The position numbers and the translations under genes were made by a program. This document shows positions 26,650 to 30,063 of a DNA stretch of 64,000 bases, piece by piece. Within the stretch, counting starts at the first letter, position 1, and the number at the start of each line of letters is the position of its first letter. Under the pieces are notes generated by a model, which saw nothing but the letters and a program-made list of their open reading frames with translations, was not told the DNA's origin and ran no database searches. The DNA lies in the NCBI GenBank assembly GCA_965263295.1, contig OZ253665.1, forward strand, positions 192,001-256,000. Direction: 5' to 3'. Source of the stretch: Spirochaetia bacterium. Its GTDB lineage: Bacteria; Spirochaetota; Spirochaetia; SP-2023.

Positions 26650-28515
26650 TTATTCTACCTTGTGCACTTGCTGCTCGTTGAAAACTTGGGCATATTCTCC
26701 GCCCAATTTGAGTAGTTCGGCGTGCTTGCCGCGTTCAATGATGCGGCCTGCTTTCAATACGATGATCTGGTCACAATTCATCACTGAGCTGATACGGTGG
26801 GCAATGATAATGCGCGTGTGGTGTGAGTCGATCATCTCCAGTTGTCGCTGGATTTCCTGTTCCGTTTCCATGTCGACGGCTGAGGTCGTGTCGTCCAGGA
26901 TCAGAATGGGCGCCTCTTTTACTAGGGCCCGCGCCAGCGCCGTTCGCTGACGCTGACCACCTGAGAGCCCAATGCCGCGTTCGCCGACGACTGTCTGGTA
27001 ACCTTGCTGCAGGGCGCCGATAAAACCGTGGGCCGCGCTGCGTTGTGCTGAACGGATGACTTTTTCCTGCGATATTGAGGCTTCATTGAAACTGATATTA
27101 AAAGCTAGGGTCTCCGAGAAAAGGAAGGGTTCCTGCATCACGTAGGATATTTGGGCCCGCAAGGTGCGCAGATCCCATTGCCGCAGATCCACGCCGTCCA
27201 GCCTGATCTCGCCGCTGTCTGGGTCGGCAAAGCGACAAAGCAGGTCGGCTAGCGTAGTTTTGCCGGCACCAGTCTCTCCAACTATGCCCAGACTTTGTCC
27301 GGCGGGAACTTTGAAGCTGATGCTTTGCAATACGATCTGATTATTGGCTGCGCCTTTGTTTGCCGCTGGACTGCCGGCCTGTTGGCCCCAGGTCACATCG
27401 CGAAACTCTAGTTCGCCTCGGCCCAGTGGGAACTTGGAAAAACTTTGTCGCTTTTGTTCATCGGGTCTTTGTTCATCGGGTCTTTGTTCATCGGGCCTTT
27501 GTTCATCAGGTCTTTGGGTTTTCGGTATATAGGGATGCTCCGGACTACAGATATGCAGCGGTGCATCGAGGATAGCAAATAAGCGTTCCGACGAGACGCG
27601 AGCAAAATTTACGGTATTGACGAGGTCTCCGAGCTGACGCATGGGCATGACGAGCATCCAGGTATAACTGGTAAACTGTACCCAAGTCCCCAGACTGAAA
27701 TCTCCGCGGATAGCCATATAGCCGCCGACTGTCAGAGCTAGAATATTACTGAAAGAGCCGAGTACTTCAAGTATTGGCATGTATTTGGTCCAGAGGGCAA
27801 CAGAGCGCTGACGGCCTTCGGTCAACTTGTGGTTTCTATGTTGGAAACGTTGAATTTCGCAGTCCTGACTCATGAAGTTTTGAATGACTCGTATCCCGTT
27901 CAGACTCTCTTGGGCAACGGCACTCAGCTTGGCGTAGGCTCTGCGGTTGTAGCGCTGCCGGACTTTGCCAATTTTTGCAAACCTGTGCGCAACCAGACCG
28001 ATTACGGGTGAGATCGCGAGGCAGAGCAGAGTCAGGCGCCAATCCAGGTATAGCATGTATAAGCTCGCCAGAGGGAAGAAGATGATATTAAATATTATGG
28101 CCTTCATACCGTTAGATAGAAAATTTCGTACCTGTTCTATGTCACTGGTAGCACGAGACATTAGCTCGCCCACGGTATTGCGATGGTAAAAACTCATATC
28201 CAGCTTCTGCATGTGGGTAAATAGCTCAATCCGCAAGCGCTGGACTGTTTTTTGGCTGAACCATTCTGTGGACAAGTCGCGCAAATAAATGACTATAGCC
28301 AATGTAAAAAAGCTAGAGATCAGCACTAATAGTAGCCGGTAGAGTTGTTCCTGCCGCGCTTCGAGATCGGCCTGGCTTTTAAATACGGTGTCGATAATCT
28401 GGCCGGTAACCCAAGGGATGCTGATATTAGCTAATAGATCAAGGAATAGCATCACAACTACAAAAATCAAAAATCCCAGATAAGGTTTCATGAAAGGATA
28501 GAGACGTTTGAGCAT
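26650..28515 (-). CDS. ABC exporter TMD+NBD subunit (degenerate Walker B), heterodimer partner
   Basis: GETGAGKT, LSGGQRQR, LILDDTTSAVD. Confidence 0.95.
   Translation of the reverse strand: MLKRLYPFMKPYLGFLIFVVVMLFLDLLANISIPWVTGQIIDTVFKSQADLEARQEQLYRLLLVLISSFFTLAIVIYLRDLSTEWFSQKTVQRLRIELFTHMQKLDMSFYHRNTVGELMSRATSDIEQVRNFLSNGMKAIIFNIIFFPLASLYMLYLDWRLTLLCLAISPVIGLVAHRFAKIGKVRQRYNRRAYAKLSAVAQESLNGIRVIQNFMSQDCEIQRFQHRNHKLTEGRQRSVALWTKYMPILEVLGSFSNILALTVGGYMAIRGDFSLGTWVQFTSYTWMLVMPMRQLGDLVNTVNFARVSSERLFAILDAPLHICSPEHPYIPKTQRPDEQRPDEQRPDEQRPDEQKRQSFSKFPLGRGELEFRDVTWGQQAGSPAANKGAANNQIVLQSISFKVPAGQSLGIVGETGAGKTTLADLLCRFADPDSGEIRLDGVDLRQWDLRTLRAQISYVMQEPFLFSETLAFNISFNEASISQEKVIRSAQRSAAHGFIGALQQGYQTVVGERGIGLSGGQRQRTALARALVKEAPILILDDTTSAVDMETEQEIQRQLEMIDSHHTRIIIAHRISSVMNCDQIIVLKAGRIIERGKHAELLKLGGEYAQVFNEQQVHKVE
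27453..27516 (-). repeat. 15-bp in-frame tandem repeat x4 (RPDEQ) in the TMD-NBD linker
   Basis: tttgttcatcgggtc units. Confidence 0.95.
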
Positions 28516-28754
28516 GAGCGACTCCCGCAGTTTTGGGTTAAAACTTTGAGATATAAAATTAGCCGTATCATAATTAATCGGCCAGAACTGGCTTGGAATG
28601 TATTGCGAATTAGGATTTTATGATAATTTAGGATTTAACTAGTTACTGTGAATTAGAATGAGGTTACAAATACTTTTGCTGTGAAATTTGCTTAGAAAGT
28701 TTGAATCTGCAAATATAAACAATCCAGAAAAAATTGAAATTATGGGTCATTCCC

Positions 28755-28800
28755 TTTTTTATCCCTGTAATTTATCCATAGATAAAACAGGGATAAAAAA
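28755..28800 (-). terminator. Intrinsic terminator downstream of rpsD
   Basis: ttttttatccctgt..tttatc cata gataaa acagggataaaaaa inverted repeat with T/A tails. Confidence 0.85.
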
Positions 28801-28810
28801 GTTGTAAACT

Positions 28811-29431
28811 TTAACGCGAGTAATATTCAACGATCATTTGTTCGTTGGCAATGCTTGGAATTTCTTCGCGAGTTGCTTCGCGTTTCATCTCGCATACTAA
28901 TTCGTCGGCCTTTAGCTCCAGCCAGGCGGGAACACTAGCGGAATTGTGGGCCATCGCTTCGCGCACGAGTTTGCGCGAGACATCGCTGTCCTTTACCGCA
29001 ACCTTATCCCCTGCGCGCAGAGTCACCGAAGGAATGTTGACGCGGCGGCCGTTTACGTAAATGTGACCATGGCTAACGATCTGACGGGCTTGAGCGCGAG
29101 AGCTGCCCCAGGCGAGGCGATAGATAACGCTGTCAAGGCGGCTCTCCAACAAGATCAGAAAATTGTTACCCGTCAAACCTTGCTTGCGCTTTTTAGCGCG
29201 CTGAAATGTGTTGTAGAATTGCTTTTCGCTCAGACCGTAGCCGTAGCGCAGTTTCTGTTTTTCAATCAACTGGCGGCCATACTCCGAAACTTTCTTGCGC
29301 GAGCGTTCACCGCGACCCATGCCGGGTCCTTGGGGTTTCTTGCGCAAGAGGCGGTCATACTTGCGGTGACCGTAAACATTGGTGCCCAGACGGCGCACAA
29401 TTTTACCACGAGCTTTGGTGTTTTGTGCCAT
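28811..29431 (-). CDS. rpsD: 30S ribosomal protein S4 (stand-alone gene)
   Basis: SEYGRQLIEKQKLR, LESRLD, RAQARQIVSHGH, VNIPS, IVEYYSR; AGGAG RBS. Confidence 0.98.
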   Translation of the reverse strand: MAQNTKARGKIVRRLGTNVYGHRKYDRLLRKKPQGPGMGRGERSRKKVSEYGRQLIEKQKLRYGYGLSEKQFYNTFQRAKKRKQGLTGNNFLILLESRLDSVIYRLAWGSSRAQARQIVSHGHIYVNGRRVNIPSVTLRAGDKVAVKDSDVSRKLVREAMAHNSASVPAWLELKADELVCEMKREATREEIPSIANEQMIVEYYSR

Positions 29432-29556
29432 AGGATTGCATTCTCCTAGCAAATGTATTCCCGGCCCTTCTGAACTCCCACGAATTGCAAGGCAATTCGT
29501 GCATTCATACTGTTCAGGTCTATGGACCGACTGTGGGCAGCCGAAGGGACGAGTGG
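29430..29556 (-). ncRNA. Structured 5'UTR of rpsD, candidate S4 autoregulatory leader
   Basis: Four contiguous helices form a perfect 4-way junction, plus a 10-bp hairpin and an SD-occluding hairpin, between promoter and start codon. Confidence 0.65.
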
Positions 29557-29562
29557 GGCCAA

Positions 29563-29591
29563 AATATAATTAAGTTCTTGTTTTTCGTCAA
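29563..29591 (-). promoter_or_regulatory. sigma70 promoter of rpsD
   Basis: TTGACG-N17-TATATT on the minus strand. Confidence 0.75.
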
Positions 29592-29631: not shown

Positions 29632-30063
29632 TCAATGGACTTTCAGATTATTGGGGCCAAAGCTTTCGGGCAGTAGCTGGCCCAGGTTGAAGCGGGCCCT
29701 GACTTTTTCTGGATTCGCTACCAGGACGTCCAGGCCCTCCGGGCCGGAAATTGTGGCAAATTCGCGCAGCTTTTGACGGCAACCGCCGCACGGAGTGCAT
29801 AGGACTTCTCCCGCACCAACCAGCATTACGGCCTGAGCTTGGAGCTCTCCGCCCATTACCATGGCGGCCAGGGCCGCCGCTTCGGCACAGATCCCTTCGG
29901 GGTAGGCGGCATTTTCTATGTTGCAGCCAGAGTAGATTCGCCCGTTGCTTCCAAGTATTGCCGCGCCGACAGAAAATTGGGAATACGGAGCATAGGCCTT
30001 TTCAAATGCAGCTTTCGCCGCGCGGTGGAGTTTTGCAATTTCTTGTTCGCTTAGTTCTGCCAC
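29632..30063 (-). CDS. cdd: Cytidine deaminase
   Basis: AYAPYSQFSVGAA, GCNIENAAY, CAE, PCGGCRQ, LLPESF. Confidence 0.96.
   Translation of the reverse strand: MAELSEQEIAKLHRAAKAAFEKAYAPYSQFSVGAAILGSNGRIYSGCNIENAAYPEGICAEAAALAAMVMGGELQAQAVMLVGAGEVLCTPCGGCRQKLREFATISGPEGLDVLVANPEKVRARFNLGQLLPESFGPNNLKVH

What the first reader, a model, noticed from the sequence alone, without database searches (positions are those of the whole stretch)
29430..29556. Perfect four-way-junction RNA in the rpsD 5'UTR: candidate new S4 autoregulatory leader
Seen: a TTGACG-N17-TATATT promoter (29591-29563) gives a ~125-nt leader for a stand-alone rpsD. On the mRNA, P1 is CUCG-U-CCCUUC (29553-29543) paired with GAAGGG-C-CGGG (29470-29460). 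It encloses P2 GGCUG-CCCA-CAGUC, P3 GGUC-CAUA-GACC and P4 UGAAC/GUUCA, with no unpaired bases at the junction. P4 continues through a GA-rich internal loop into the perfect hairpin CACGAAUUGC-CUU-GCAAUUCGUG (29501-29479). A further hairpin, UAGGA..UCCUA, pairs the SD just before AUG. Established: S4 binds a multi-helix junction in 16S rRNA and autoregulates through mRNA leaders in E. coli, Bacillus and several other phyla. Inference: this is an rRNA-mimic S4 operator. I know of no described spirochaete version.
Basis: partly seen in the sequence, partly recalled or inferred. Interest (0 to 1): 0.8.

Follow-up and report, generated by a model that had tools for sequence, protein, structure and literature searches.

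The report
New structured RNA leader of rpsD
A small group of spirochaete bacteria carries a conserved, branched RNA structure in front of the gene for ribosomal protein S4, most likely a new feedback switch by which S4 limits its own production, though neither binding nor resemblance to ribosomal RNA has been shown.

Summary
The structure is real. The motif and its sigma70-like promoter sit upstream of the stand-alone rpsD in 4 of 4 genomes of the genus, although the flanking genes differ. On the 4-sequence alignment, 91 of 92 cells pair and 9 of 23 pairs change on both sides. There is no Rfam hit, no match to a Firmicutes-type S4-leader profile, and no credible match outside the genus. Two corrections. 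(1) The 'perfect' junction is one of two registers: the P4 3' strand can pair with either of two conserved URAAY copies. Covariation is equal and the energies lie within 1 kcal/mol; ViennaRNA and RNAalifold favour the imperfect register. (2) Sequence likeness to the 16S S4 site is at chance level. Best reading: a new, genus-restricted S4 autoregulatory leader acting on translation initiation (0.65). This is inferred from position and precedent, with no binding or expression data. It is a new fold of a known kind of element.

The parts
29563..29591 (-). sigma70-like promoter (-35 at 29591-29586, 17-nt spacer, -10 at 29568-29563)
   Evidence: same type and spacing in 4 of 4 genus genomes; consensus match only
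29554..29556 (-). predicted transcription start; an invariant A (29554) lies 7-8 nt after the -10 box in all four genomes, after a GC-rich stretch in three
   Evidence: inference, no RNA data
29543..29553 (-). P1, 5' strand (closing helix)
   Evidence: 2 of 5 modelled pairs change on both sides
29529..29542 (-). P2 hairpin; invariant G-U and C-G pairs near the junction; 4 to 29 nt enclosed by its 5 modelled pairs in the four genomes
29517..29528 (-). P3 hairpin; two invariant G-C pairs at the junction; no two-sided change
   Evidence: probability 0.26-0.30
29502..29511 (-). conserved purine-rich loop strand, holding the second URAAY copy (29507-29503) = P4 5' strand in register B
   Evidence: 10 of 13 loop columns invariant against 12 of 66 four-fold sites of rpsD
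29479..29501 (-). P5 hairpin, sequence-variable, 4 of 5 modelled pairs change on both sides
29471..29478 (-). invariant GGA loop strand (29478-29476) and P4 3' strand (29475-29471)
29460..29470 (-). P1, 3' strand; the modelled P1 core ends 34, 34, 34 and 31 nt before AUG in the four genomes
29431..29448 (-). Shine-Dalgarno hairpin, after an unpaired linker (29459-29449)
   Evidence: mean unpaired probability of the SD 0.30, 0.27, 0.33, 0.56 in G000, G002, G001, G003
28811..29431 (-). rpsD, ribosomal protein S4, 206 aa, no zinc-binding cysteines, single copy, outside the alpha operon
28753..28800 (-). long hairpin after the rpsD stop, without a U run behind it
   Evidence: fold of the 95-nt downstream stretch, -26.4 kcal/mol
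29632..30063 (-). upstream cytidine deaminase gene (context only; not next to rpsD in G001-G003)

Best explanation
A genus-restricted S4 ribosomal leader (r-leader). The transcript starts at the foot of P1, so the RNA fills the 5'UTR of the monocistronic rpsD (predicted). It folds into a four-helix junction with a conserved purine-rich loop next to it (fold supported by covariation; P4 register unresolved). Free S4, in excess over nascent 16S rRNA, binds the junction and loop (inferred). The complex sits a fixed 31-34 nt upstream of AUG, beside the unpaired linker and a weakly paired SD. It lowers translation initiation by blocking or trapping the 30S subunit (inferred), closing a negative feedback loop. 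Recognition would be by shape rather than by a copied 16S sequence.
For: One copy per genome, always directly upstream of rpsD, in 4 of 4 genus genomes. Neighbouring genes differ on both sides, while promoter, leader and rpsD stay together. A model trained on two sequences recovers the other two at 64.1 and 38.4 bits. 91 of 92 cells pair and 9 of 23 pairs change on both sides, against 37-50% pairing in slid controls. Invariant bases cluster at the junction and loop, while helix tips vary in sequence and length. The distance to AUG is kept although the UTR varies from 123 to 153 nt. The longest U run in any leader is 4, so no attenuator. S4 is the only gene product available, the 'Only' ligand principle listed in Table 1 of PMC7247131. 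S4 binds a helix junction, mostly through backbone contacts (PMC2665224). The Bacillus stand-alone rpsD is autoregulated through a branched leader followed by an SD hairpin (PMC3849166; PMC10931766).
Against: No binding, expression or TSS data (one search lists no RNA holder). No sequence likeness to the 16S S4 site above chance: p 0.15-1.0 in all 12 comparisons. Only four related sequences, and the alignment was fitted to the structure, so the pair counts lean towards it. The fold alone is not significant in G002 and G003 (30 and 43 of 300 shuffles as stable). The SD hairpin is not conserved in G003. Neither register touches the SD, so there is no evident expression platform. Relatives with the most similar S4 mostly have a short UTR with a single 5' hairpin, which also fits a plain stability element.
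Confidence: 0.65

Rival explanations
1. A constitutive 5'-end stability or translation-tuning structure with no ligand: P1 starts at the first bases of the transcript and shields it from 5'-dependent decay.
For: P1 begins 1-3 nt after the predicted start. In relatives the same promoter type is followed by a simple hairpin of variable sequence and often an SD hairpin; 14 of 23 such UTRs fold better than 90% of mononucleotide shuffles.
Against: Protection needs only a stem. It does not explain invariant junction pairs, or 10 of 13 invariant loop columns against 12 of 66 neutral sites.
Confidence: 0.15
2. A cis-regulatory RNA with another ligand (metal, metabolite, or another ribosome-related protein) that tunes S4 output to growth conditions; the two P4 registers would be its two states.
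For: Four-way junctions with a conserved internal loop occur in riboswitches (recalled, e.g. yybP-ykoY and NiCo). Two near-equal registers exist in 4 of 4 sequences.
Against: No Rfam riboswitch matches even at E up to 10 in any of the four leaders. rpsD is single-copy, so there is no zinc-paralogue switch of the kind discussed in PMC3087516. One copy per genome, never upstream of other genes.
Confidence: 0.1
3. A highly diverged member of the Firmicutes S4 leader family: closing stem, variable hairpin, loop-bearing arm and SD hairpin, with one extra hairpin (P3).
For: Same order of elements as the published consensus. G003 has an exact GUAA 5' of P5, and all four have GGA 3' of it, near the family's YGA. 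Both precede a stand-alone rpsD.
Against: GUAA is exact in 1 of 4; the GCU terminal loop is absent in 4 of 4. Profile R3 finds untrained Firmicutes-type leaders (24.5 and 9.8 bits) but scores the four leaders at 1.9 bits at best. R2 finds none in 86 loci that include those leaders. No intermediates were found in other spirochaetes.
Confidence: 0.07
4. Inherited sequence similarity among close relatives with no selected structure, or a leader peptide.
For: Only four genomes of one genus; G000 has a 20-codon uORF that ends at the SD (read).
Against: Four-fold sites are only 32-65% identical between genomes, yet pairing is kept through two-sided changes in 4 of 5 helices. The uORF is not conserved: in frame with rpsD in G002, short or absent in G001 and G003 (read).
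Confidence: 0.03

Closest known systems
Firmicutes (Bacilli) S4 r-leader, validated in B. subtilis; not in Rfam as of 2020 (PMC3849166; PMC7247131 Table S1)
   Same: Stand-alone rpsD outside the alpha operon; closing stem enclosing a variable hairpin and an arm with a conserved purine-rich 5'-side loop; SD hairpin downstream.
   Different: Three helices at the junction there, four here. GUAA exact in 1 of 4, GCU loop absent, YGA replaced by GGA. No profile match either way.
S4-Fusobacteriales r-leader (PMC7247131)
   Same: Multi-stem junction with GUAA 5' and YGA 3' of a stem; predicted S4 ligand.
   Different: It lies upstream of rpsM in the alpha operon, and its GUAA precedes the stem that encloses the junction, whereas here the conserved loop lies within one arm. 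No Rfam hit. The figure and alignment were not seen.
S4-Bacteroidia, S4-Flavobacteria and S4-Clostridia r-leaders (PMC7247131)
   Same: Lineage-specific predicted S4 leaders without clear rRNA mimicry; two lie directly upstream of rpsD.
   Different: The first two are hairpins inside the alpha operon. No Rfam hit here.
E. coli alpha-operon pseudoknot, RF00140
   Same: S4 represses translation at an mRNA site with two conformers and no rRNA mimicry.
   Different: A pseudoknot that includes the rpsM ribosome binding site. Here a junction ends about 30 nt upstream of AUG, and there is no Rfam hit.
16S rRNA five-helix junction (h3, h4, h16-h18), the natural S4 site (PMC2665224)
   Same: A multi-helix junction with conserved purine-rich loops; short motifs in the leader resemble h16, h17 or the h18 bulge by eye.
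   Different: Four helices, not five; no sequence match above shuffled controls.

Membership tests
Ribosomal leaders (r-leaders) in general | Consistently in the 5'UTR of an r-protein gene | tested here: met
   4 of 4 genus genomes, one copy each, upstream of rpsD
Ribosomal leaders (r-leaders) in general | Conserved secondary structure supported by covariation | tested here: met
   9 of 23 pairs with two-sided change, 91 of 92 cells paired; only four related sequences, R-scape not available
Ribosomal leaders (r-leaders) in general | Lies downstream of the transcription start | tested here: inconclusive
   Promoter consensus conserved upstream in 4 of 4; no RNA run available
Ribosomal leaders (r-leaders) in general | Binds the encoded r-protein and represses expression | not testable with these tools
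   Needs binding and reporter assays
Firmicutes S4 r-leader | Conserved GUAA 5' of a hairpin | tested here: not met
   Exact in 1 of 4 (G003); consensus RURAA (definition)
Firmicutes S4 r-leader | [quoted passage not shown] | tested here: not met
   Absent from the P5 loop in 4 of 4
Firmicutes S4 r-leader | YGA 3' of the hairpin | tested here: not met
   GGA in 4 of 4
Firmicutes S4 r-leader | Profile match to family members | tested here: not met
   Home-made sequence-only profile R3 from 13 Firmicutes-type loci: best 1.9 bits on the four leaders; it finds L127, L086 and L087 but misses the candidate in L059, so sensitivity is limited. The published model could not be run.
Firmicutes S4 r-leader | Monocistronic rpsD, SD close behind the structure | tested here: met
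Rfam 15 families (Alpha_RBS, S4 leaders, riboswitches, ribozymes) | Covariance-model hit at gathering score | tested here: not met
   0 hits in the window; only sub-threshold snoRNA, gut-2 and CRISPR hits at E up to 10. That the 2020 S4 motifs are in Rfam 15 is recalled, not shown by a call.
rRNA-mimic leader | Conserved nucleotides match the S4 site of 16S rRNA | tested here: not met
   Local alignment to each genome's own 16S: p 0.15-1.0 against shuffles in 12 of 12 comparisons; three-dimensional mimicry not testable

The most novel reading that the evidence does not exclude
The leader is a slip-register switch. One strand (29475-29471) alternates between two tandem URAAY partners, so the RNA toggles between a perfectly stacked four-way junction with an exposed RURAA loop and an open junction in which that loop is buried. 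S4 captures one register. Both copies carry the same G-to-A change in G003, and the registers are within 1 kcal/mol in all four genomes. This would be a minimal conformational-selection mechanism not described for the S4 leaders in the papers I read. Against it: a shuffled loop offers a second 5-bp partner 10-24% of the time, and the shared change is a single event.
Probability: 0.2. Interest if true: 0.65.

Novelty: new variant of a known kind. Interest (0 to 1): 0.45.

Why it matters
If confirmed, it is the first S4 leader from spirochaetes that my searches could find, and a further independent RNA fold for one ligand. That bears on how often autoregulation is reinvented once rpsD leaves the alpha operon. 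Relatives show a short hairpin UTR and a second, different long leader, so the lineage offers a series for studying how r-leaders arise. The compact 95-nt domain with two registers is easy to test by SHAPE and locked mutants. Its scope is limited: four genomes of one genus, and a well-known class of regulation.

Tried and rejected
Rfam: no family at gathering score in the window or in 18 rpsD loci except one tRNA. Weak hits (sn2903, gut-2, CRISPR-DR20, sR39) are far below cut-off and rejected. rRNA mimicry by sequence: three different readings (h16, h17 3' strand, h18 bulge) looked plausible by eye; none beat shuffles. 23S rRNA was not included because the search for it gave no answer. G076 hit (22.7 bits): many broken pairs and on another contig than that genome's rpsD, rejected as chance. 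A weak R1 hit in L003 (E 0.048) was dropped before building alignment A5. Four weak R2 hits (E 0.11-0.73) lie outside the rpsD UTRs. Genome searches of over 40 genomes scored only 25 candidates per genome, so diverged copies could be missed. Metagenome and genome scans with S4 gave no new member of the genus (L036 duplicates G003). Sequencing runs: no RNA holder listed; laid contigs showed 4 variants in the rpsD coding region and none in the leader, which is uninformative. Attenuation: longest U run 2-4. uORF: not conserved. K-turn reading of the loop (consensus recalled): a 5-6 nt bulge and no G at the tandem position in G003, not pursued. P3 as a GNRA docking loop: GNRA in 3 of 4, but on stems of different length. 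RNAalifold on 17 short relative UTRs gave no consensus pairs. R3 got no base pairs, so it is sequence-only. Earlier findings of the scan: nothing returned. A literature search with a guessed genus name returned nothing relevant. The S4 alignments in supplement 3 of PMC7247131 were beyond the part held; they and the figures could bear on the Fusobacteriales comparison.

Full report
Observation. The window holds a minus-strand S4 gene at 29431-28811, confirmed as S4 by NCBIfam. It is the only copy in the 2.41-Mb genome. The alpha operon lies elsewhere, with about 500 nt between the rpsM match and rpoA, too little for rpsK plus rpsD. The promoter scan lists the TTGACG-17-TATATT site among 5 found, against a mean of 1.8 in shuffles. 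The region folds better than chance: z -2.55, 4 of 200 shuffles.

Conservation. A search of 31 genomes gave three congeneric genomes, with S4 81-90% identical. Their upstream regions align with the leader. A covariance model built from G000 and G002 alone recovered G001 at 64.1 bits and G003 at 38.4 bits, directly upstream of rpsD, among 26 loci; the 22 loci from outside the genus gave nothing, and one weak hit elsewhere in L003 (E 0.048) was dropped. On the four-sequence alignment, 91 of 92 cells pair and 9 of 23 pairs change on both sides (P1 2, P2 2, P3 0, P4 1, P5 4). None of 500 shuffles reached these values, and slid controls gave 37-50% pairing. The alignment was fitted to the structure and the sequences are kin, so these counts lean upward. 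Selection on sequence is also evident: 47 of 97 ungapped columns and 10 of 13 loop columns are invariant, against 12 of 66 four-fold sites in rpsD. The genes immediately flanking rpsD differ among the four genomes, yet the promoter is kept in 4 of 4. The P1 core ends 34, 34, 34 and 31 nt before AUG, while the stretch enclosed by P2 varies from 4 to 29 nt.

Two registers. The P4 3' strand (GUUYA) can pair with either of two tandem URAAY copies. Pair counts are identical for both; RNAalifold and the MFE choose the second. With the helices enforced, register B is lower by 0.7-0.9 kcal/mol in three genomes and equal within 0.1 in G003, with or without coaxial stacking terms. Both copies change G to A in G003. 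A shuffled loop would offer a second partner 10-24% of the time, so a functional switch is possible but not shown.

Distribution. The four-sequence model matched 4 of 6 genomes of the order, one copy each. It matched 5 of 151 genomes of the class; the fifth, G076, has broken pairs and is not beside rpsD. It matched 1 of 151 in a phylum sample, G000 itself, 0 of 86 further loci including 16S loci, and no rpsD UTR among 25 loci with the closest S4 proteins. These are samples searched with filters, so the motif is 'not found', not 'absent'. Most of those relatives keep the same promoter type with a UTR of about 45 nt that folds into one 5' hairpin and often an SD hairpin. Two (L209, L211) have a different leader of about 145 nt.

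Mechanism. Shown: position, linkage to rpsD, conserved helices, conserved junction and loop, fixed spacing to AUG, no U tract. Inferred: transcription start at the foot of P1, S4 as ligand, repression at translation initiation. The SD is mostly paired in three genomes (mean unpaired probability 0.27-0.33) and less so in G003 (0.56). Neither register reaches the SD, so steric blocking or entrapment of the 30S subunit is more likely than an anti-SD switch; entrapment is the E. coli mechanism (PMC10931766, section 13). [quoted passage not shown]

Known families. Rfam gives no hit. The Firmicutes S4 leader had no Rfam accession in 2020 (PMC7247131 supplement 1, Table S1), so I tested it separately. 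Its marks are GUAA 5' of a hairpin, GCU in the loop and YGA 3' of it (PMC3849166 section 7 and supplement). Here GUAA is exact in 1 of 4, GCU is absent and YGA is GGA. A sequence-only profile from 13 Firmicutes-type loci scored the four leaders at 1.9 bits at best, while finding untrained members at 24.5 and 9.8 bits and missing one candidate. The element is thus not a member, but it shares the layout and probably works like it. Spirochaete S4 genes have mixed ancestry (PMC3087516, passages); I did not build a tree.

Literature seen. PMC7247131: abstract, passages, section 10, searches in and part 3 of supplement 1, first part of supplement 3; 'spiroch' does not occur in supplement 1 and 'spirochaet' not in the main text. 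PMC3849166: abstract, section 7, first part of and searches in the supplement. PMC2665224 and PMC3087516: passages. PMC10931766: passages and section 13. Grundy and Henkin 1991 and 1992: not read. Searches for a spirochaete S4 leader listed none; the library is limited to open-licence papers, and figures were not visible.

Verdict. A real, covarying RNA motif that I could not find described, restricted so far to one spirochaete genus. It is most likely an S4 autoregulatory leader (0.65). The perfect junction and rRNA mimicry are not supported as stated. New variant of a known kind; interest 0.45.

Noticed in passing
L204-L224 (family f37), rpsD 5'UTRs: Most have a UTR of about 45 nt behind the same promoter type, with a 5-9 bp 5' hairpin of variable sequence and often an SD hairpin; 14 of 23 UTRs tested (set includes four loci outside L204-L224) fold better than 90% of shuffles. 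Possibly a minimal rpsD element; RNAalifold on 17 of them gave no consensus.
   Followed up: partly
L209:2116-2262 (-) and L211:2116-2260 (-): A second, different rpsD leader of about 145 nt in two genomes of genus g67, with a long closing stem and inner hairpins; z -0.06 and -1.86, 3 of 36 predicted pairs with two-sided change; not matched by R2.
   Followed up: partly
window 28811-29431 and L001-L011, L204-L228: S4 of this spirochaete clade lacks the His of the PGxHG motif in the 22 spirochaete proteins printed, while the two Firmicutes-type proteins keep it; PMC3087516 calls this motif highly conserved.
   Followed up: no
L196 (16S rRNA of G000), near E. coli position 508: G000 has A where G001-G003 have U in the h18 bulge, within the S4 site (one G000 copy examined).
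   Followed up: no
window 28753-28800: Long inverted repeat after the rpsD stop, with the U run before and the A run after the stem on both strands, so not a classic intrinsic terminator.
   Followed up: partly
window about 27440-27510: Short tandem repeat inside the ABC transporter gene at 26650-28515, encoding a repeated five-residue unit.
   Followed up: no
L007 and L009, upstream of rpsD: In both genomes of the sister family f2, rpsD directly follows a short lysine- and arginine-rich ORF instead of a long leader (read).
   Followed up: no
L203 (G076:C17:1-2712): Weak R2 match in a region of short, phage-like ORFs, unrelated to rpsD.
   Followed up: yes
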